Positions 23,891 to 63,512 of a stretch of 64,000 nucleotides of DNA are shown here, one piece after another. The translations under genes were made by a program, and so were the position numbers. The notes below the pieces were generated by a model. It made no database searches, was not told where the DNA came from, and saw only the letters and a list, made by a program, of their open reading frames with translations. Source of the stretch: Candidatus Acidiferrales bacterium (GTDB lineage: Bacteria; Acidobacteriota; Terriglobia; Acidiferrales; UBA7541); contig DATEKA010000141.1 in NCBI GenBank assembly GCA_035277685.1, forward strand, positions 2,280-66,279, given 5' to 3'. The first letter of the stretch is position 1; each line of letters begins with the position of its first letter.

Positions 23891-26035
23891 ATGCGGTTTG
23901 GGGCGACAAGGCTTCAGATTTCGAGCGTGCTGGCGAAGGGCCTGCGGCGGCCGAAATTGCGTTCCGATCTGCGAATCAGCGAGCAGACGGTGGCAGGTGA
24001 GAAAAGCTATGTCATCAAGGTTGCGGAGACCAATTCATATAACCGATATGGGGAAACGGAATACGAGCTGCTCACATTGTGCGACGGGACGCGCACAGCG
24101 GCAGAAGTTGGCGAAGAGCTGAACCGGCGACATCCGGACGAGCCGCTACCCGAATCCGAGGTGCTCGATTTTCTGGACGGCATCGAGCCCGCCATGTGGG
24201 AGCGAAGCGTCGGCGAGAAGAACCTCGCCGTGCTGGAGCGTATCCGCGATGAACGAAAGGGGCGCCTCGATCAATCAAGCGCTCTCTATATAAGTTTCAA
24301 GGCCTGGGACCCCGACAAGTTTCTGTCCCGAATCGACCCCTACCTGAGCTGGATTTTCACTCCAGGATTTGTGGCCGCTTCCTGCCTGTTGTTCATTGTG
24401 TGCGGGTACCTGCTCGCGGGTGATTGGACCAGGGTGGCGAACGACACCAGGGCCCTCTACTCGTTCCAAAACAAGACCGCGTATGACATTTGGGTCTTCT
24501 GGCTGATTCTGCTTGTGGTCGGGGGAATTCATGAGTGCGGGCACGGATTGACTTGCAAGCACTTTGGCGGCGACGTCCACCAGATGGGCTTCATGCTGAT
24601 TTATTTCACGCCGGCATTTTTCACGGACACGACCGATATCGTCTTGTTCCAGGAGGGCAGCCGCCGGCAGTGGGTAATCTTCGCGGGAATCTGGATCGAA
24701 CTGACGGTGTGCGCGATTTCGACGCTGATCTGGCATTTCACGCTTGCGGGATCGCCGATCAATGACCTGGCATACAAAGCGATGCTCCTCAGCGGAATAC
24801 AGGGGGCGCTGCTCAACCTGAATCCTTTGATCAAGGCAGACGGCTATTATGCGCTGGCGCAATTTCTGGACATAGACAACCTGCGCGAGGACTCGTTCAC
24901 ATTTTTGCGCGCTCTCGCCCGGAAGTACGCGCTGCGTGAGGACATTGACTTGCCAAAGGCCAGCCGGCGGCTGCGCCGCATCTACGTAATTTTCGGGCTC
25001 GCCGCAATCACCTACAGCACAACGCTGATTCTGCTGGTGCTGGGATTTGTGAAGAACATATTCGTCGAGAAATTCGGGGACTGGGGATACGTCCTTACGC
25101 TGGCTGTCGCCTACTTCTTCGCGCGGAAGGGGTTGAAGAAGGCGTTCCCTGCCATTCGCGCCTGGTGGCGAGAGAAGAGGGAGGTGTACATGGCGTGGAA
25201 AATGACGCGCGCACAGCAGATTGGGGCTCTGGCGATCGGATTCCTATTGGTGGTACCGCCGTTTCCGTCGCGCGTGTCCTCGGACTTCATTCTTGAACCC
25301 GGAAGCGACGCGCACGTTCGAGCGGCAGTGCCCGGGCGCGTGGACCGGGTCTTCGTGCATGAAGGAGATCATGTGGCGGCGGGCCAACTGCTTGCGATCC
25401 TGGAGAATCCAGACATCACAAAGAGTGAGCGAGTGCTCAGCCAAGAACTTGCGCTGGCGAGCGGCCTGGTCCGAACCGGCCAGCAAAGCCCGGAAAAGAA
25501 GAGTCCCGCCGGGGCAATTCGGGAGCGTAAGCGCCTCCAAGAGGAGTTCGCGGTGGCCCAGCAAAGGGCAGGCGAATTGGAGATTCGCGCACCGCATGAG
25601 GGAGTTGTTACAACACCCAACGTTGACCGAAAGGCGGGTGAGTTCTTGAGTGCGGGGGGCGAGTTCTGCCGCATCGTTGACCGCAACACGATGAAGGCCC
25701 GCATCCTGGTGCGCGATTGGGAGTTGGACAGGATACATGCCGGGGCCGGGGTTCAAATGAAGGTCGCGGCGTTTCCTTTCCACACATACTCGGGCACGGT
25801 AGAGCAGATCCTACCGGCTGCGGCTAACGACGAACCCGTCTCTCACCCTCAGCGCCAGGAGCGGCTCGGGCAGGAACTGAGCAACTATTTTGGCGTCGTG
25901 GTGGATTTCATGAATCCGGACGGATCCCTTCGCGAGGGAATGACGGGAATCGCGAAAGTTTACTGCGGAAGGTCGCCGTTGGCGTGGAAAGCCGTCCGGG
26001 GCGCGTGGAGATGGATGCGATCTCAAGTTTGGTGA
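23891..26035 (+). CDS. PqqD-like (RRE-like) domain / M50 site-2-type zinc metalloprotease / HlyD-domain fusion protein
   Basis: 714 aa. The N-terminal 100 aa (PKLRSDLRISEQTVAGEKSYVIKVAETNSYNRYGETEYELLTLCDGTRTAAEVGEELNRRH...VLDFLDGIE) fits the PqqD pattern. The polytopic core carries HECGHGLTCKHFGG (HExxH). The C-terminus is an HlyD module (VHEGDHVAAGQLLAILENPD, IRAPHEGVVTTP). Confidence 0.8.
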   Translation: MRFGATRLQISSVLAKGLRRPKLRSDLRISEQTVAGEKSYVIKVAETNSYNRYGETEYELLTLCDGTRTAAEVGEELNRRHPDEPLPESEVLDFLDGIEPAMWERSVGEKNLAVLERIRDERKGRLDQSSALYISFKAWDPDKFLSRIDPYLSWIFTPGFVAASCLLFIVCGYLLAGDWTRVANDTRALYSFQNKTAYDIWVFWLILLVVGGIHECGHGLTCKHFGGDVHQMGFMLIYFTPAFFTDTTDIVLFQEGSRRQWVIFAGIWIELTVCAISTLIWHFTLAGSPINDLAYKAMLLSGIQGALLNLNPLIKADGYYALAQFLDIDNLREDSFTFLRALARKYALREDIDLPKASRRLRRIYVIFGLAAITYSTTLILLVLGFVKNIFVEKFGDWGYVLTLAVAYFFARKGLKKAFPAIRAWWREKREVYMAWKMTRAQQIGALAIGFLLVVPPFPSRVSSDFILEPGSDAHVRAAVPGRVDRVFVHEGDHVAAGQLLAILENPDITKSERVLSQELALASGLVRTGQQSPEKKSPAGAIRERKRLQEEFAVAQQRAGELEIRAPHEGVVTTPNVDRKAGEFLSAGGEFCRIVDRNTMKARILVRDWELDRIHAGAGVQMKVAAFPFHTYSGTVEQILPAAANDEPVSHPQRQERLGQELSNYFGVVVDFMNPDGSLREGMTGIAKVYCGRSPLAWKAVRGAWRWMRSQVW

Positions 26036-26054
26036 AGTAGCTCGACTGGGGATC

Positions 26055-26089
26055 AAAAAAAGAGGTCGCCGCGGTGGAACGGCGACCTC
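26055..26089 (-). terminator. Rho-independent terminator closing the minus-strand micro-ORF cluster
   Basis: There is a perfect 9-bp stem GAGGTCGCC/GGCGACCTC (26062-26070 / 26081-26089) with a 10-nt loop. On the minus strand it is followed by T7 (26061-26055). On the plus strand no T-run follows. Confidence 0.65.
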
Positions 26090-26186
26090 GGGGTGGGTGG
26101 TTCCTTTGTAAATATCCTCAGAAGACCGTAGAAGACCTTCCGAGGAAAATCAGGGTACGGTCTCCGCTCGGGCGCCGCTAAGCTGC

Positions 26187-26300
26187 TCAGGGCACGCGGC
26201 GAAGCATTTGAACCGTGAGCGGTTGCTTCTTTTCGAGCTTCTTTCCGGCTTTCAACTTCCTTGCCGGTTTGACGGGTTTTGATTTGGCTTTCATGCTCAT
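26187..26300 (-). CDS. Lys-rich micro-protein P1 (37 aa), paralogue of P2/P3
   Basis: My translation is MSMKAKSKPVKPARKLKAGKKLEKKQPLTVQMLRRVP*. It shares the GKKLEKKQ core with P2/P3. GAGAGA lies upstream, and the second ATG at 26294 is an alternative start. It is below the 60-aa cutoff, so it is absent from the track. Confidence 0.5.
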   Translation of the reverse strand: MSMKAKSKPVKPARKLKAGKKLEKKQPLTVQMLRRVP

Positions 26301-26468
26301 CTCTCTGCAAACGGCCCCAAGGCCCACGGCGAAAACCCGTGGACCTCGCCTCATCATCGCACAGCTCTGAGGGCAACAAAACCTCAGAGCTTACAGTTTC
26401 CGCCGCTATTAGGCCAAGCGGCAGAGGGTACAAGCCGCGAAGGGGTCCCTAGGGACCCTCCGGCAGCT

Positions 26469-26582
26469 TCAGTTGAACGGAGTCACTTTCGGGGCCCACT
26501 TGCTCTGCAGGGTCTGCTTCTTTTCGAGCTTCTTGCCCGAGGCCAGCTTCTTTCCCGACTTCACTGCTTTGCTCTTCGTCAT
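26469..26582 (-). CDS. Lys-rich micro-protein P2 (37 aa)
   Basis: My translation is MTKSKAVKSGKKLASGKKLEKKQTLQSKWAPKVTPFN*. The SD GAGGGAG lies 6 nt upstream. The listed ORF 26449..26631 is in a different frame. Confidence 0.55.
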   Translation of the reverse strand: MTKSKAVKSGKKLASGKKLEKKQTLQSKWAPKVTPFN

Positions 26583-26725
26583 TTTCGTCTCCCTCGCTTG
26601 GATTGTCGCGCCCTGGGGCGCGGTCAGTCATGACGTCGGTTATAAGTCCGATTCGGGCGGAACGTCGGGCCCGGACCAGGCCCGCTGCGGAATGTAGGGC
26701 AGCGAGCGCTCAAAAAAACAAAGGC

Positions 26726-26830
26726 CTAATTGAAGGTCATCAACGGCGTCTTGCTCTGCAGGGTCTGCTTCTTTTCAAGCTTCTTGCCAGCCGCCTTCCC
26801 GGACTTGATTGCCTTCGCTTTGCTTGCCAT
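26726..26830 (-). CDS. Lys-rich micro-protein P3 (34 aa)
   Basis: My translation is MASKAKAIKSGKAAGKKLEKKQTLQSKTPLMTFN*. It forms the C-terminal part of track ORF 26726..26968. The SD GAGGGG lies 7 nt upstream. A sigma-54-type promoter sits about 75 nt upstream. Confidence 0.6.
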   Translation of the reverse strand: MASKAKAIKSGKAAGKKLEKKQTLQSKTPLMTFN

Positions 26831-26904
26831 TTCGTTGCCCCTCGCGTTTGATGTCGCGCTTGAGAAGCGCGCCAGAGTAGCCTTTGCGGCTCTGCGGGTG
26901 TAAG

Positions 26905-26920
26905 TGCAATCGGGGAGCCA
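26905..26920 (-). promoter_or_regulatory. Candidate sigma-54 (-24/-12) promoter
   Basis: The minus strand reads TGGCTC-CCCGA-TTGCA against the consensus TGGCAC-N5-TTGCW. The GG-N10-GC spacing is exact. It lies about 75 nt upstream of the P3 ATG and about 140 nt downstream of the bEBP stop codon. Confidence 0.6.
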
Positions 26921-26971
26921 AACGAACAGTGTGCGCAGGGAAGGCCCGCTCCGTTGAGGCGAAAGCACTTA

Positions 26972-27012
26972 GCGCACGTCCCCTGTGCCACGACGAAGAA
27001 GCGGCGCACGTC
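26972..27012 (-). promoter_or_regulatory. Candidate enhancer (UAS): direct repeat GCGCACGTC x2
   Basis: The identical 9-mer GCGCACGTC (plus-strand reading) occurs at 26972-26980 and 27004-27012, 32 bp apart (about 3 helical turns). This is 55-95 bp upstream of the -24 element. An AT-rich tract follows at 27018-27055. Confidence 0.35.
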
Positions 27013-27057
27013 ACACGTTGAGTTTTTTATCGAGAATATTTAATTTTTCAACGCCTG

Positions 27058-28410
27058 CTACAGGCCGTGCTTCCGGCAAAGATAGTTCAGGCGGTTGCGA
27101 TCGATTCCGAGCAAGCGTGCGGCTTCGGTCTTCGTCTGTTTGGTCTGCAGGAGGGCTTCCTGGAGCCAGCGTTTCTCGAAATTCTCCAGTTCCTTATCCA
27201 GATCGATTCCGCCGGGAGGCAGCCGAAAGTGGCTTCGGGAATCGCGTGCATCGGCCTCGACGATTTCTCCCGGCAGATCTTTCAGGGCGATGTGCTCGCC
27301 ATCGGTCATGATGACCATTCTTTGAACAGCGTTCTCAAGCTCACGAACGTTCCCTGGCCATGTGTAATTTTTCAACGCTTGCATGGCATCGTCGCCGATG
27401 CGCTTGAGCGCCAAGCCGTTCGCGGCGCAATAAACGCTTACGAAATACTCCACCAGCAGGGGGATGTCGTCCACCCGGTCACGTAAGGCGGGAACGAAGA
27501 TGGGGACAACGTGAATGCGGTAGTAGAGGTCTTCGCGGAAGTGCCCGTCCCTCGTCATCTGCTCCAGATCCTCGTTTGTCGCGCTGATCAGGCGGAAATC
27601 AACTTTGATCTGCCTTTTACCGCCCAGCCGCGTGAGGGACCGCTCTTCGAGAACACGGAGCAGTTTGCTTTGCAAGGCGGGAGTGAGGGTGGCGATTTCG
27701 TCGAGGAAGAGTGTTCCAGTGTGGGCCAGTTCGATCCGCCCTTCCTTCATGGCAACGGCGCCGGTGAAGGCTCCCTTTTCATAGCCGAATAGCTCGGCTT
27801 CCATCAAACCTTCCGGCAGGGCGGCACAGTTCACACTGATAAAAGGACGGACCCGGCGAGGCCCCTGATCGTGCAGCGCGCGGGCGACGAGTTCTTTGCC
27901 AACGCCGCTTTCGCCGCGAATGATGACATTGGTCGTGGCGCGAGCCATGCGTTTGACCGAATCGAAAACATGGCGCATCGAATCCGTGGCGCCGATCAGA
28001 TCACCGAGGGCATGTTTGCGGCTGATCTCGTCGCGCAGGATGCGATTTTCGCGCTGGATGCGCAGCTTTTCGATGGCGCGTTCGAGAAGGTGACGCAGAA
28101 CGTCGGTATCGATGGGCTTGATAAAGTAATCGTACGAGCCGGCGTCGATGACTTTCAGGGCGCTGGATTTCCTGTCGTCAGAACTGAGGACGATGACCAG
28201 TGTGTCGATTTCGCTCCCTTGAAGGCGAGAAAGCAGCTCGGTGCACTCCTTGACGCCGCCAGAAGCGATGGGCAGGCCCAATAGAAGGACATCGAGCTCC
28301 GATTCCTGCAGGAGTTTATAGGCGGCGTTGTAGTCGTCGCCCTCGAGGATTTCGAAATCTGCTTTGAGGGCAGAACAGACCTTGGACCGCAGGTCCGCGT
28401 CGTCGTCCAC
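27058..28410 (-). CDS. Sigma-54-dependent transcriptional activator (NtrC-family bEBP) with a degenerate receiver domain
   Basis: The AAA+ core has GESGVGKE, GAFTGA (EKGAFTGA) and a Fis-type HTH (EAARLLGIDRNRLNYLCRKHGL). In the receiver, the phospho-acceptor position reads LDVLLLGLPIA, with Gly where Asp is expected. The annotated GTG start truncates beta-1, so the real start may be ATC 28446 (see findings). Confidence 0.85.
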   Translation of the reverse strand: MDDDADLRSKVCSALKADFEILEGDDYNAAYKLLQESELDVLLLGLPIASGGVKECTELLSRLQGSEIDTLVIVLSSDDRKSSALKVIDAGSYDYFIKPIDTDVLRHLLERAIEKLRIQRENRILRDEISRKHALGDLIGATDSMRHVFDSVKRMARATTNVIIRGESGVGKELVARALHDQGPRRVRPFISVNCAALPEGLMEAELFGYEKGAFTGAVAMKEGRIELAHTGTLFLDEIATLTPALQSKLLRVLEERSLTRLGGKRQIKVDFRLISATNEDLEQMTRDGHFREDLYYRIHVVPIFVPALRDRVDDIPLLVEYFVSVYCAANGLALKRIGDDAMQALKNYTWPGNVRELENAVQRMVIMTDGEHIALKDLPGEIVEADARDSRSHFRLPPGGIDLDKELENFEKRWLQEALLQTKQTKTEAARLLGIDRNRLNYLCRKHGL

Positions 28411-61039: not shown

Positions 61040-61735
61040 ATGAAACGAGTTCTGCTGATCGAAGACGATAAAGACATCGTCGAGCTGGTGAGGTACAACC
61101 TGGACAAGGAAGGTTTCCAGTGCGCCAGCGCGAGCGATGGAGCCACGGGTCTGGCACAGGTCCGTAAGGCGCCCCCCGATCTGCTGATTCTCGATCTCAT
61201 GCTCCCCAAAGTCGCGGGGCTCGAAATTTGCAAAGAAGTCCGTAAAGACGCGAGTCTCAATCGCCTGCCGATTCTGATCCTGACGGCCAAGGGCGAAGAA
61301 GCGGATCGCGTCGTGGGCCTCGAACTGGGGGCCGACGATTACGTGACAAAGCCGTTCAGCCCGCGAGAGCTTGTCGCGCGGATCAAGGCTTTGCTCAGGC
61401 GATCCGAACCCGGAACGCCTTCGGAAAAGCTCATTGAGATTGGCGCACTGCGTATCGATCCCGCGGCGTACCGGGTGACGCGCGGCGGGAAGCCGGTCCC
61501 GATGAGCACTTTGGAGTTCCGGTTGCTGTATTTCCTGGCATCGAGGCCCAACCGCGTCTTTTCGCGCGATCAATTGCTGGACGCCGTTTGGGGAACGGAA
61601 CGGTTCGTCACGCCTCGCAGCGTAGACGTTTACGTTCGCCGTCTCCGCGAAAAAATCGAGATGGATCCGCAACGCCCGGCCTACATGAAGACGATGCGTG
61701 GAGCCGGGTACCTCTTCGAAACTCGTGCGAGCTAA
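61040..61735 (+). CDS. phoB: OmpR/PhoB-family response regulator
   Basis: Shows [17 protein letters not shown]...[15 protein letters not shown]...[30 protein letters not shown] plus a winged helix ([27 protein letters not shown]). The context is phoR and phoU. Confidence 0.85.
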
Positions 61736-63512
61736 GCTCTTTTGGAAGCTCGGTCTGAGCTACGTCGTCCTCCTTCTGGGCGTGCTGTTTGCCGTCGATC
61801 TGTACTGGGCGCGCGTCCTTCGCCGTGACTACATTCGCGAGGCAAACGACAGACTGGCTGCGTTGACGAAGCTGGCCATAGCTCAACGCCCGCAGCCCGA
61901 TGCCAAATCCGGCCTACACACATGGGTGCAGCAGATGGCGAGCGGCGGAGCGCGAGTTACCGTATTCGCGGCGGATGGCGCGGTTCTTGCAGATTCGGCC
62001 CCGGTCAGCGAAGGCTCTGCCGGCTCGATGGATGCAGAGGTTCGGAAAGCGCTGCTCACCGGCGAGGGAGACGCGGTGCGGCCCGACCCTGGGCTTGGTA
62101 CCGACGCCGTCTACCGGGCCGTGCGCTATCAGCGGCCGCCCGGCGTTCCCATAGTCATTCGCATGGCGATTCCGATCATCCAGGCCGATGTCCAGCGCGC
62201 ACAAATGCGCCGGAGCTTGCTGGCCGGGTCGTTAGCAATTCTTGTCGCCGGTATTGGTGTGTCGTTCATCTTTTCACGCAGGTTCGCCAGCCGGATCGAG
62301 GAGCTAAAATATTTTTCACGGCGCGTCGCGGGCGGGGATTTTCGTCCGCTCCAATTTGCAGGACCTCGAGATGAAATCGCCGACCTCGCGGATGCTCTGA
62401 ACGAAACCGCTGCGCGGCTTGACGCCACGATCGAATCGCTCAGCAGCGAGCGCAATCGTTCGAGCGCGATTCTGCGCAGCATGGCCGAGGGTGTCGGCGT
62501 GATTGACGCTCACGAGCGGCTCATCTTCTTCAACCGCGCCTTCGGCCAGATTCTGAACCTCGACGCCGGGACGGGCCAAGGGCGTCCCGTGATTGAAATC
62601 GTCCGCAATTCGCAACTGTTGGCGCTAATTCGCAAAGCACTCGCCGGCGAGGAAGGATTGCAGGAAGATATCGCGATGGGCTTCGTTCAGCAGCGCAGTT
62701 TTTCCGTGACTGCCGCTCCTGTGAATCCTTTCGACGCCGCGGGCGTCTCAGGAAAACCAACGGACGCAGGAAAGCCGTCCGGCGCTGTCGTGGTGCTGCA
62801 CGATGTGTCGGAACTGCGTCGCCTGGAGCGCGTTCGACAGGACTTTGCCGCCAACGTGTCCCACGAGTTCAAAACGCCCCTCACCGCCATCCGGGGGTTT
62901 GCCGAGACCCTCCTGGGCGGGGCCATCGATGATCCCGCGAACAACCGGCGATTTCTGGAAATCATTCGCGATCATGCCACCCGTCTCGGTCGCCTTACAG
63001 ACGACCTCATGAAACTGGCGCGCATCGAGGCGGGAAAACTCGAAGTGCAGTTTTCTCCGGTGAATTTGGCCGATGTAGCGGGCGCATGCGAAGAAACTGC
63101 TCTGCTGAAGGCCGGACGCAAGCAAATTGCTCTCGAACTGGACGTTCCCGCTTCGCTGCCGGCGGTGCGGGGAGACACACACCTCCTGCACGAAGTTCTG
63201 CAGAATCTTCTCGACAATGCGGTCCAGTACACGCATCCGGGCGGAAAGATTCAGATCACCGCAAGATCGCGTGAACGCGACGCGGTGGTCACGGTGGCGG
63301 ACACGGGAATTGGAATTCCACTGGCGGAACAGGAGCGGATTTTCGAGCGCTTTTACCGCGTGGATGCCGCGCGGTCTCGCGAGGCCGGCGGAACGGGCCT
63401 TGGCCTCTCGATCGCGCGGCACATCGTCGAAGCGCACGGGGGTCGCATCTGGGTAGAAAGCGAAGTTGGCACTGGCTCGAAGTTTTCCTTTTCCGTTCCT
63501 CTTGCGTCCTGA
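61725..63512 (+). CDS. phoR: PhoR-like sensor histidine kinase (TM-HAMP-PAS-HisKA-HATPase)
   Basis: Starts [24 protein letters not shown]. The H-box is [19 protein letters not shown], and the N/G boxes are [10 protein letters not shown] and [18 protein letters not shown]. The start is GTG 61725 or GTG 61698, and it overlaps the phoB end. Confidence 0.85.

What the first reader, a model, noticed from the sequence alone, without database searches (positions are those of the whole stretch)
26905..27055. Near-consensus sigma-54 promoter plus a 9-mer direct repeat between the bEBP gene and the first micro-ORF
The minus strand reads TGGCTC-CCCGA-TTGCA at 26920-26905. This is one mismatch from TGGCAC-N5-TTGCA, with exact GG-N10-GC spacing. 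It lies about 75 nt upstream of the P3 ATG. Upstream of it, 55-95 bp away, GCGCACGTC occurs twice exactly 32 bp apart (26972-26980 and 27004-27012). That geometry is typical of bEBP upstream activating sequences. An AT-rich tract (27018-27055) follows the bEBP stop. The simplest reading is that the neighbouring sigma-54 activator drives the micro-ORF cluster. I found no equally good -24/-12 element in front of P2 or P1, so the three may be co-transcribed, with the inter-ORF hairpins acting in processing or stability.
Basis: partly seen in the sequence, partly recalled or inferred. Interest (0 to 1): 0.62.

Follow-up and report, generated by a model that had tools for sequence, protein, structure and literature searches.

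The report
Conserved sigma-54 promoter for tiny peptide genes
The predicted sigma-54 promoter is real, is conserved in about 75 related soil Acidobacteria and sits at the start of an abundant RNA covering three tiny lysine-rich peptide genes, but its activator-binding site is the AT-rich palindrome pair after the activator gene, not the 9-mer repeat.

Summary

**Promoter (26920-26905, minus strand).** It is genuine.
- The same -24/-12 element occurs in the forward orientation in 75 of 76 syntenic Acidiferrales loci: 146 forward hits against 7 reverse.
- Each element lies about 45-65 nt before a Lys-rich micro-ORF.
- A matrix trained only on the other loci ranks the window's site first in its 3.89-Mb genome.
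- rpoN and a GAFTGA-bearing activator are both present.
- In eight soil metatranscriptomes a discrete RNA covers only the three micro-ORFs (26041-26882), with depth up to about 217 against 0-4 on the flanks. It starts 12-17 nt below the predicted +1 (about 26894) and ends at a strong terminator. This supports co-transcription.

**9-mer repeat (GCGCACGTC).** It is not the activator-binding site.
- It is absent from all 75 other loci, including relatives at 85-90% identity.
- It lies in the least conserved stretches and is polymorphic in one sample.
- Such repeats are common in the window (27).

**The conserved site.** It is the "AT-rich tract": two sites of the type GTTGA-N5-TCAAC, 21 bp apart (27052-27038 and 27031-27017). 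They sit at fixed distances upstream of 131 of 146 promoters.

**Verdict.** This is canonical sigma-54 logic with a new binding motif. It drives an undescribed, highly expressed peptide family.

The parts
27058..28410 (-). Sigma-54 activator (bEBP): receiver-like domain, AAA+ sigma-54 interaction domain with GAFTGA, and a Fis-type HTH
   Evidence: Pfam hits: Response_reg, Sigma54_activat (2.4e-68) and HTH_8. GAFTGA lies at residue 212. The phospho-acceptor position is Ala or Gly in 63 of 63 orthologues. The orthologue is convergent with the M50-HlyD gene in about 75 of 80 loci.
27038..27052 (-). Binding site 1, GTTGAAAAATTAAAT. This is a degenerate copy of the family palindrome GTTGA-N5-TCAAC, centred about -151 from the predicted +1.
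   Evidence: Sites sit at a fixed distance of 126-130 nt upstream of the TGG at 131 of 146 promoters. The block is invariant in the WIN/L002/L003 alignment.
27017..27031 (-). Binding site 2, GATAAAAAACTCAAC (family consensus TGAnnAATTCAAC). It lies 21 bp from site 1, centred about -130.
   Evidence: The modal distance upstream of the TGG is 107-109 nt. AATTCAAC occurs at 0.62 per kb in these intergenic regions against 0.013 per kb in the background. It is conserved.
27004..27012 (-). It is lineage-specific and probably not functional.
   Evidence: It is absent from all other loci. It falls in an unconserved alignment block. A 27004 G>T variant occurs in run X20.
26972..26980 (-). Proximal copy of the 9-mer. 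It is lineage-specific and abuts the conserved TAAGTGCTTT box.
26953..26971 (-). Conserved box TAAGTGCTTTCGCCTCAAC between the binding sites and the promoter. Its role is unknown; it may be a DNA-bending or accessory site.
   Evidence: AAG[TC]NCTTT occurs at -50 to -48 from the TGG in 19 of 54 promoters of the same class. The block is conserved in WIN/L002/L003.
26905..26920 (-). Sigma-54 -24/-12 promoter TGGCTC-CCCGA-TTGCA. GG is at 26919-26918 and GC at 26907-26906.
   Evidence: Flanking bases that were not used to select the sites also match the consensus: T at -1 in 92%, C after GG in 80%, A after TTGC in 96%.
26831..26894 (-). Predicted transcription start (about 26894, +/-1) and the 5' UTR with its Shine-Dalgarno sequence GAGGGG
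   Evidence: Invariant sequence resumes exactly at 26894 (CAGAGCCGCAAAGG...) after 4-6 variable bases. RNA contigs end at 26877-26882.
26726..26830 (-). Micro-ORF P3 (34 aa, MASKAKAIKSGKAAGKKLEKKQTLQSKTPLMTFN)
   Evidence: The family HMM finds 208 hits on the forward strand and 0 on the reverse.
26469..26582 (-). Micro-ORF P2 (37 aa), with no promoter of its own
26187..26294 (-). Micro-ORF P1 (35 aa from the ATG at 26294), with no promoter of its own
26320..26460 (-). Three stable hairpins between P2 and P1, at about 26460-26441, 26391-26363 and 26346-26320
   Evidence: They are present in both the MFE and the centroid fold. The whole transcript folds with z = -2.5. Their role is untested.
26055..26089 (-). 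Intrinsic terminator: an 11-bp GC-rich stem followed by T7
   Evidence: RNA contig 3' ends fall at 26093, 26093, 26099 and 26041.

Best explanation
The element at 26920-26905 (minus strand) is a working sigma-54 (RpoN) promoter. RNA polymerase carrying sigma-54 binds the GG/GC element and waits as a closed complex.

The activator is encoded immediately upstream (27058-28410). It has REC-like, AAA+ (with GAFTGA) and HTH domains, and its receiver lacks the phospho-acceptor Asp. It binds two phased palindrome-type sites directly after its own stop codon: GTTGAAAAATTAAAT at 27052-27038 and GATAAAAAACTCAAC at 27031-27017. The sites lie 21 bp apart, centred about -151 and -130. The activator then loops onto the promoter and uses ATP hydrolysis to open it.

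Transcription starts near 26894. It yields one tricistronic mRNA of about 0.83 kb (P3-P2-P1) that ends at the terminator at 26089-26055.

The 9-mer repeat is a lineage-specific coincidence and is not the enhancer.

Shown here:
- conservation of the promoter, of the binding-site pair and of their spacing;
- presence of rpoN and a GAFTGA-bearing activator;
- a discrete, abundant RNA with matching boundaries.

Inferred, not shown:
- that this particular activator binds these sites;
- that expression depends on rpoN;
- the exact +1.
For: 1. Conservation.
- TGG-N8-TTGC occurs 146 times forward and 7 times reverse in 76 syntenic intergenic regions, 12-fold over the flanks.
- Nearly every hit is followed 45-65 nt later by a Lys-rich micro-ORF.
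- 142 of 208 micro-ORFs have their own promoter. The rest are downstream cistrons.

2. Bases not used to select the sites match the sigma-54 consensus TTGGC...TTGCA.

3. A matrix trained without the window ranks its site first in the 3.89-Mb genome, at 24.2 bits against 19.3 for the next hit. It is the only high-scoring hit with the upstream palindromes.

4. Binding sites.
- TGA-N5-TCAA lies at about 108 and about 128 nt upstream of the TGG at 131 of 146 promoters.
- The window's AT-rich tract occupies those positions, at -109 and -130.

5. Footprinting among close relatives. The binding sites, the TAAGTGCTTT box, the promoter and the 5' UTR from 26894 onward are all conserved. The stretches holding the 9-mers are not.

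6. Machinery.
- rpoN is intact.
- The activator has Sigma54_activat, GAFTGA and HTH_8.

7. RNA.
- Eight metatranscriptome runs give contigs only within 26041-26882.
- Five contig 5' ends fall at 26877, 26877, 26877, 26880 and 26882.
- No contig lies between 26883 and 27219.
- Depth is 38-217 on the transcript against 0-4 on the bEBP and M50 genes.
- DNA runs cross the boundary without a break.
- In relative L049, RNA contigs start 11 and 9 nt below the predicted +1 of two other promoters.

8. No sigma-70-like promoter was found in 25900-27200, and there is a strong terminator at 26089-26062.
Against: - The RNA evidence comes from assembled contigs without strand information. It is not read-level 5' mapping.
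- The contig ends are 12-17 nt short of the predicted +1, so a start or processing site near 26880 is not excluded.
- Contig ends in metatranscriptomes can also mark assembly-graph branch points. This was seen at L048, position 8362.
- The window's two binding sites each carry a core mismatch: TAAA for TCAA, and TAA for TGA.
- The -24 box has T instead of A (TGGCTC).
- The genome encodes about 17 bEBPs. Assigning the neighbouring one as the activator rests on conserved adjacency only.
- Some runs show about 10-fold higher depth over the P1-proximal segment (X37, X32). Processing or an unrecognised internal start could cause this.
Confidence: 0.85

Rival explanations
1. One reading: the promoter is real, and the activator binds the GCGCACGTC direct repeat (26972-26980 and 27004-27012) as its upstream activating sequence.
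For: - The repeat is exact and 32 bp apart, about three helical turns. It lies 52-92 bp upstream of the -24 element.
- This geometry is possible for a bEBP.
Against: - GACGTGCGC occurs in no other of the 75 syntenic intergenic regions.
- It is not present in L002 or L003, and both copies sit in the least conserved alignment blocks.
- A natural variant, 27004 G>T, breaks the distal copy.
- The window holds 27 such repeats, about one per 2.4 kb.
- The activator's HTH is conserved across loci, so its site should be conserved too. The palindrome pair is conserved.
Confidence: 0.04
2. The conserved palindrome pair and the promoter are real, but another regulator binds the sites. This could be one of the other roughly 16 bEBPs or a non-bEBP factor. 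The neighbouring bEBP would then control something else.
For: - The genome has about 17 bEBP genes.
- No binding data exist.
- The AT-rich sites could in principle serve an architectural protein.
Against: - The bEBP orthologue sits immediately upstream in about 75 of 80 loci, with the first palindrome within about 10 nt of its stop codon.
- Every additional promoter in a locus carries its own palindrome pair at the same distance.
- The family-trained matrix finds no other target promoter with these sites in the genome.
- Few such sites occur outside the intergenic region, and those that do fall in coding sequence.
Confidence: 0.08
3. The -24/-12 match is not the start point. The abundant RNA would be a stable processed 3' product of read-through from the bEBP gene, or it would start from an unrecognised non-sigma-54 promoter near 26880-26900.
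For: - Contig 5' ends cluster at 26877-26882, not at 26894.
- There is no terminator between the bEBP stop and the micro-ORFs.
- Low-depth read-through contigs occur in relatives.
Against: - No RNA contig lies at 26883-27219 in any of eight runs, while depth downstream is 38-217.
- The -24/-12 element is conserved with strict orientation and spacing.
- No sigma-70-type match was found.
- The same 9-17 nt shortfall is seen at two further predicted starts in L049.
- As general knowledge, not tested here: standard RNA-seq and assembly usually lose the extreme 5' end.
Confidence: 0.04

Closest known systems
NtrC-activated glnAp2 promoter of enteric bacteria (textbook sigma-54 and bEBP enhancer architecture; from general knowledge)
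   Same: - A GG-N10-GC -24/-12 promoter.
- Two phased dyad-type activator sites more than 100 bp upstream.
- An activator with REC, AAA+ (GAFTGA) and Fis-type HTH domains.
- Activation by DNA looping.
   Different: - The site sequence is GTTGA-N5-TCAAC, not the NtrC site TGCACC-N5-GGTGCA.
- The sites are 21 bp apart rather than 32 bp, and lie at about -151 and -130.
- The receiver lacks the phospho-acceptor Asp (Ala or Gly in 63 of 63 orthologues), so control cannot be by classical phosphorylation.
- The target is a set of micro-ORFs rather than a metabolic gene.
PrsR, the PEP-CTERM-box response regulator (NCBIfam TIGR02915)
   Same: It is the best-scoring named bEBP family for the activator, aligned over its full length (E = 9.9e-124). 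It also has the REC-AAA+-HTH architecture and is common in soil bacteria.
   Different: - The score of 413.6 bits is below the family cut-off of 502.6.
- No PrsK partner, exosortase or PEP-CTERM context was seen next to it.
- The targets here are Lys-rich micro-ORFs.
LuxO-activated qrr sRNA promoters of Vibrio (sigma-54 promoters driving very short genes; from general knowledge)
   Same: - A bEBP and sigma-54 drive small, abundant transcripts.
- These arise from compact cassettes of binding site plus promoter that occur in multiple paralogous copies.
- The binding site is a short AT-rich palindrome of TTGCA-N3-TGCAA style.
   Different: - The products here are translated Lys-rich peptides. The family HMM finds 208 forward and 0 reverse hits, and Rfam finds nothing.
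- The activator gene is adjacent to its target.
- The receiver is phospho-dead.
Daptide-type RiPP clusters (precursor peptides plus an RRE-fused intramembrane HExxH protease)
   Same: The convergent neighbour (23891-26035) matches the daptide HExxH protease model (E = 5.2e-55) and carries a PqqD-like domain. Short precursor-like peptides are encoded in tandem beside it.
   Different: - The score of 187 bits is below the cut-off of 300.
- No daptide tailoring enzymes are present.
- The protease is fused to an HlyD domain.
- Regulation by a dedicated sigma-54 activator did not turn up in two full-text searches.

Membership tests
Sigma-54 (RpoN)-dependent promoter | Invariant GG (-24) and GC (-12) dinucleotides exactly 10 nt apart | tested here: met
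   TGGCTCCCCGATTGCA at 26920-26905. The same spacing holds in 146 forward hits across 76 loci.
Sigma-54 (RpoN)-dependent promoter | Match to the extended consensus TGGCAC-N5-TTGCW beyond GG/GC | tested here: met
   One mismatch, A to T at the fifth base. Across the family, positions not used for selection match the consensus: T before TGG in 92%, C after GG in 80%, A after TTGC in 96%.
Sigma-54 (RpoN)-dependent promoter | rpoN is encoded in the genome | tested here: met
   Sigma54_DBD hit at 7.3e-59 in a 502-aa open frame on contig C252.
Sigma-54 (RpoN)-dependent promoter | A bEBP with an AAA+ domain and a GAFTGA loop is available | tested here: met
   Sigma54_activat hit at 2.4e-68. GAFTGA lies at residue 212. 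The gene is directly upstream.
Sigma-54 (RpoN)-dependent promoter | Transcription starts about 11-13 nt downstream of the -12 GC | tested here: inconclusive
   RNA contig 5' ends fall at 26877-26882, 12-17 nt below the predicted +1 of 26894, with nothing upstream. These are contigs, not reads. Sequence conservation resumes exactly at 26894.
Sigma-54 (RpoN)-dependent promoter | Expression depends on rpoN and on ATP hydrolysis by the bEBP | not testable with these tools
   This needs genetics or in vitro transcription. The organism is known only from metagenome-assembled genomes.
bEBP upstream activating sequence (enhancer) | Conserved dyad-symmetric sites, usually paired and helically phased, about 80-150 bp upstream of the promoter | tested here: met
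   GTTGA-N5-TCAAC and TGAnnAATTCAAC lie at about -128 and -108 from the TGG at 131 of 146 promoters. In the window they are at 27052-27038 and 27031-27017, 21 bp apart.
   It is found in 0 of 75 other loci, is unconserved, is polymorphic, and occurs at a chance-level frequency.
bEBP upstream activating sequence (enhancer) | Physical binding by the cognate activator | not testable with these tools
   This needs an EMSA or footprinting.
NtrC-type two-component response regulator | REC domain with a phospho-acceptor Asp | tested here: not met
   The position is Gly in the window (LDVLLLGLP) and Ala or Gly in 63 of 63 orthologues.
PrsR (TIGR02915) equivalog | Score above the curated cut-off | tested here: not met
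   413.6 bits against a cut-off of 502.6.

The most novel reading that the evidence does not exclude
The unit of binding-site pair, sigma-54 promoter and micro-ORF is a self-contained cassette of about 250-500 bp. It duplicates and diversifies within Acidiferrales loci, with 1-3 promoters and 1-6 peptides per locus.

A bEBP subfamily whose receiver can never be phosphorylated commands every cassette. Its input would then be something other than a kinase. Candidates are the exported or processed peptide itself, or the state of the RRE-M50-HlyD envelope machine. That would make this a sigma-54-gated autoinducing peptide circuit, for signalling or as a bacteriocin, specific to soil Acidobacteria and strongly switched on in situ.
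Probability: 0.25. Interest if true: 0.75.

Novelty: new member of a known kind. Interest (0 to 1): 0.5.

Why it matters
- It turns a one-mismatch motif into a well-supported regulatory module for an uncharacterised peptide system. The system is widespread in soil and peat Acidobacteria and is among the more abundant transcripts of these organisms in situ.
- It supplies a defined promoter, a defined candidate activator site (GTTGA-N5-TCAAC, two copies 21 bp apart) and a transcript model. These can be tested directly in a heterologous host, although the organisms themselves are uncultured.
- It corrects the binding-site assignment, so footprinting or mutagenesis would be aimed at 27017-27052 rather than 26960-27012.
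- The composite motif of binding sites plus promoter is a specific search handle for further members of the peptide family. Gene callers miss these peptides.

Tried and rejected
- **Generic consensus counting.** In the window this cannot separate signal from chance: 28 two-mismatch hits against 26.6 expected, and 2 one-mismatch hits against 1.67. The second one-mismatch hit (61976-61991) lies inside a 604-aa ORF.
- **Promoters for P2 and P1.** I looked for weaker -24/-12 elements before each. There are none; the best score is 2.7 bits, and it lies inside P3.
- **Sigma-70-type promoter scan** of 25900-27200: 0 hits.
- **Co-regulation of the M50-HlyD operon or the bEBP gene.** I asked whether either carries the same binding sites or promoter.
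  - The only recurrent TTGA-N5-TCAA hits are at fixed positions inside coding sequence.
  - Only 5 stray promoter hits appear across 76 loci.
  - Co-regulation by this module is therefore not supported.
- **IHF site.** I compared the conserved TAAGTGCTTT...TCAAC box by eye with the IHF consensus WATCAANNNNTTR. There is no convincing match, so its role is left open.
- **Rfam scan** of 25900-27200 at E<=1: no match.
- **RNA at relative L048.** Depth was low (2-5), read-through contigs were present, and some contigs ended at assembly-graph branch points (8362). I judged it inconclusive.
- **Full-text searches.** Two searches for sigma-54-regulated precursor peptides, RiPPs or Acidobacteria found nothing relevant.
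- **First palindrome patterns.** My first patterns (TTGAAA-N3-TTCAA) used the wrong spacing and found nothing. They were corrected to TTGA-N5-TCAA.

Full report
**1. The observation**

The minus strand reads TGGCTC-CCCGA-TTGCA at 26920-26905. GG is at 26919-26918 and GC at 26907-26906, the exact GG-N10-GC spacing. It has one mismatch to TGGCAC-N5-TTGCW. The motif ends 75 nt before the ATG of the first micro-ORF (P3, ATG at 26830). GCGCACGTC occurs at 26972-26980 and 27004-27012. The stop codon of the upstream gene is at 27060-27058, and an AT-rich stretch follows it. All stated coordinates are correct.

**2. Chance**

The motif alone is not informative.
- The 64-kb window has 2 one-mismatch matches where 1.67 are expected, and 28 two-mismatch matches where 26.6 are expected.
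- The other one-mismatch match (61976-61991) lies inside a 604-aa ORF.

The 9-mer repeat is also unremarkable.
- Exact 9-mer direct repeats spaced 9-50 bp apart occur 27 times in the window.
- A first-order Markov model expects 14.6 +/- 4.7.

**3. Context**

- The upstream gene (27058-28410, minus strand) is a bEBP (bacterial enhancer-binding protein, the sigma-54 activator). It has Response_reg, Sigma54_activat (2.4e-68) and HTH_8 domains, and its GAFTGA loop is at residue 212.
- Its best named family is PrsR (TIGR02915), but it scores below the cut-off: 413.6 against 502.6 bits.
- The genome has an intact rpoN and about 17 bEBP genes.
- Downstream lie three paralogous Lys-rich micro-ORFs: P3 at 26830-26726, P2 at 26582-26469 and P1 at 26294-26187.
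- A strong intrinsic terminator follows at 26089-26062 plus T7.
- Convergent with them is a PqqD-like/HExxH-protease/HlyD fusion that resembles the daptide protease, again below cut-off.

**4. Comparative test of the promoter**

The search for related loci, queried with the protease-HlyD protein, returned 80 loci. Nearly all are from Candidatus Acidiferrales or other Acidobacteriota MAGs.

About 75 of them have the bEBP orthologue (68-90% identical) convergent with the protease gene, separated by a spacer of 0.5-5 kb.

In the 76 usable spacers, window included (127 kb in total):
- TGG-N8-TTGC occurs 146 times in the micro-ORF orientation and 7 times on the other strand.
- That is 1.15 per kb against 0.094 per kb in the flanking 1.8 Mb of strand sequence.
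- 75 of 76 loci have at least one hit.

Almost every hit is followed 45-65 nt later by the ATG of a Lys-rich micro-ORF; in the window the distance is 76 nt.

A family HMM finds 208 micro-ORFs on that strand and none on the opposite strand.
- 142 have a promoter within about 110 nt.
- The other 66 sit 130-800 nt behind a promoter-proximal micro-ORF, so polycistronic arrangements are common.

Positions not used to select the sites agree with the canonical sigma-54 consensus: T at -1 in 92%, C after GG in 80%, A after TTGC in 96%.

A matrix built from 138 promoters of the other loci scores the window's site at 24.2 bits. That is the top hit of the entire 3.89-Mb genome on both strands; the next scores 19.3. 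It is also the only high hit with the upstream palindromes.

Within the window's spacer the next best score is 2.7 bits, so P2 and P1 have no sigma-54 promoter of their own.

**5. The real upstream activating sequence**

Anchoring all promoters on the TGG revealed two positionally fixed AT-rich blocks at -125 to -117 and -104 to -97.

The sequences show a 15-bp palindrome GTTGAAAWWTTCAAC, followed 21 bp later by TGAnnAATTCAAC.
- TGA-N5-TCAA is found 107-109 nt and/or 126-130 nt upstream of the TGG at 131 of 146 promoters.
- TTGA-N5-TCAA is 22-fold enriched over the flanks.

In the window the corresponding sites are GTTGAAAAATTAAAT (27052-27038) and GATAAAAAACTCAAC (27031-27017). Each has one core mismatch. 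They sit at -130 and -109 from the TGG, so their centres are about -151 and -130 from the predicted +1. This is the "AT-rich tract" of the finding.

By contrast:
- GACGTGCGC occurs in no other spacer.
- In the alignment with the two closest relatives (L002 and L003, proteins 85-90% identical), both 9-mer copies fall in the least conserved stretches.
- The palindromes, a TAAGTGCTTT...TCAAC box (26971-26953), the promoter and the 5' UTR are all conserved in that alignment.
- One environmental variant carries 27004 G>T inside the distal copy.

The TAAGTGCTTT box recurs at -50 to -48 in 19 of 54 promoters of the same class. Its role is unknown, and it does not match the IHF consensus.

**6. RNA evidence**

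Many soil and rhizosphere metagenomes hold the region at near identity, and several metatranscriptomes hold it too. Eight RNA runs from five studies gave contigs only within the micro-ORF block:

| Run | Contig span(s) | Depth |
|---|---|---|
| X28 | 26206-26877 | 86 |
| X29 | 26174-26516 and 26518-26877 | 8 and 5 |
| X30 | 26205-26834 | 100 |
| X31 | 26099-26251 and 26286-26880 | 3 and 19 |
| X27 | 26041-26877 (837 nt) | 38 |
| X33 | 26348-26882 | 115 |
| X32 | 26093-26734 | 217 |
| X37 | 26093-26311 | 217 |

- In X33 the bEBP and protease genes have depth of only 3-4.
- X37 also gave two fragments, at 26374-26510 (depth 18) and 26635-26789 (depth 22).
- No RNA contig covers 26883-27219 in any run.
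- DNA metagenome contigs of 9-10 kb pass through without a break, so the boundary belongs to the RNA and not to the assembly.

The predicted +1 is 26894, 12 nt below the C at 26906. The five 5' ends therefore fall 12-17 nt short of it. Loss of the terminal bases is usual for RNA-seq and assembly (general knowledge), but contigs cannot fix the +1. Independently, invariant sequence among the three closest genomes resumes exactly at 26894, after 4-6 variable bases that follow the promoter.

Single contigs span P3, P2 and most of P1, and the 3' ends fall at the terminator. This supports one tricistronic mRNA of about 0.83 kb.

In relative L049, RNA contigs begin 11 nt (8398 against 8409) and 9 nt (8891 against 8900) below the predicted starts of two further promoters. 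L048 was low-depth and inconclusive.

**7. Mechanism**

The most likely mechanism is canonical enhancer-dependent sigma-54 activation.
- The neighbouring activator binds the paired palindromes just beyond its own stop codon.
- It contacts the closed complex at 26920-26905 by DNA looping. The conserved 26971-26953 box may assist.
- It opens the promoter, and transcription of P3-P2-P1 runs to the terminator.

The activator's receiver has Ala or Gly at the phospho-acceptor position in 63 of 63 orthologues. The input is therefore not classical phosphorylation, and what it is remains unknown.

The binding of this particular activator, the dependence on rpoN and the exact +1 are all inferences.

**8. 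Inter-ORF hairpins**

The transcript is predicted to be more structured than shuffles (z = -2.5), with three stable hairpins between P2 and P1. In X37 the P1-proximal piece has about 10-fold higher depth than the P2 and P3 pieces. In X32 the deep contig stops at 26734, just short of P3. X31 shows the opposite trend. Differential stability or processing is possible but unproven. Contig depth is also a poor measure.

**9. Comparison and novelty**

The regulatory logic is textbook, of the NtrC/glnAp2 type. New here are:
- the binding-site motif GTTGA-N5-TCAAC, present as two copies 21 bp apart;
- the phospho-dead bEBP subfamily;
- the target, an unannotated Lys-rich micropeptide family beside an RRE-protease-HlyD gene.

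Two full-text searches found no description of this system, and Rfam has no match.

As a regulatory element this is a new member of a known kind. The system it controls appears to be undescribed. Earlier notes of this scan made the same claim; I tested the regulatory part independently here.

**10. Verdict**

- Promoter: confirmed and strongly supported.
- Co-transcription of the three micro-ORFs: supported.
- Neighbouring bEBP as the activator: likely.
- The 9-mer repeat as the activator-binding site: rejected, and replaced by the palindrome pair at 27052-27017.

Noticed in passing
window 27058-28410 (residue 45 of the bEBP): The receiver domain's phospho-acceptor position is Gly here and Ala or Gly in all 63 full-length orthologues. 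This is a conserved pseudo-receiver. The HTH recognition region (AARLLG[IV]DRNRLNYLCRK) is almost invariant.
   Followed up: partly
window 26953-26971 (minus strand): A conserved box TAAGTGCTTT-N4-(A/C)TCAAC lies between the binding sites and the promoter. It is seen at -50 to -48 in 19 of 54 same-class promoters and is conserved in L002 and L003. It does not match the IHF consensus, and its function is unknown.
   Followed up: partly
window 26093-26311 versus 26374-26789: In metatranscriptome X37 the P1-proximal RNA segment has about 10-fold higher contig depth (217) than the P2 and P3 segments (18-22). In X32 the deep contig (depth 217) stops at 26734, just short of P3. X31 shows the opposite trend. 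This may reflect processing or differential stability at the inter-ORF hairpins, or it may be an assembly artefact.
   Followed up: no
window 27004: Run X20 is labelled RNA-Seq but behaves like DNA, with uniform coverage. It carries G>T at 27004, inside the distal copy of the 9-mer repeat.
   Followed up: no
window 61976-61991 (+): This is the second one-mismatch match to the sigma-54 consensus (TGGCGCGGTTCTTGCA). It lies inside a 604-aa ORF (61698-63512) and is probably a chance match.
   Followed up: partly
L002-L081 spacers between the bEBP and the M50-HlyD gene: Loci carry 1-6 micro-ORFs and 1-3 promoters, and each promoter has its own palindrome pair at the same distance. The binding sites, promoter and micro-ORF therefore seem to duplicate as one cassette. 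Two promoter flavours (TTTGGCGCGnnGATTGCAcTA and acTTTGGCGnnnGCTTTGCATATAA) go with different peptide subfamilies.
   Followed up: partly
L008 and L017, about 4.2-4.4 kb upstream of the M50-HlyD gene start; L010 and L036, 1.7-2.0 kb beyond the bEBP start: Extra high-scoring promoters of the same type (19-28 bits) lie outside the main spacer in a few loci. They may mark further micro-ORF cassettes.
   Followed up: no
window region 26041-26882 in public runs: This organism's locus is present at near identity in at least 19 soil or rhizosphere metagenome runs from about a dozen studies. The micro-ORF RNA is detectable in at least 8 metatranscriptomes. The system is therefore geographically widespread and expressed in situ.
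   Followed up: partly
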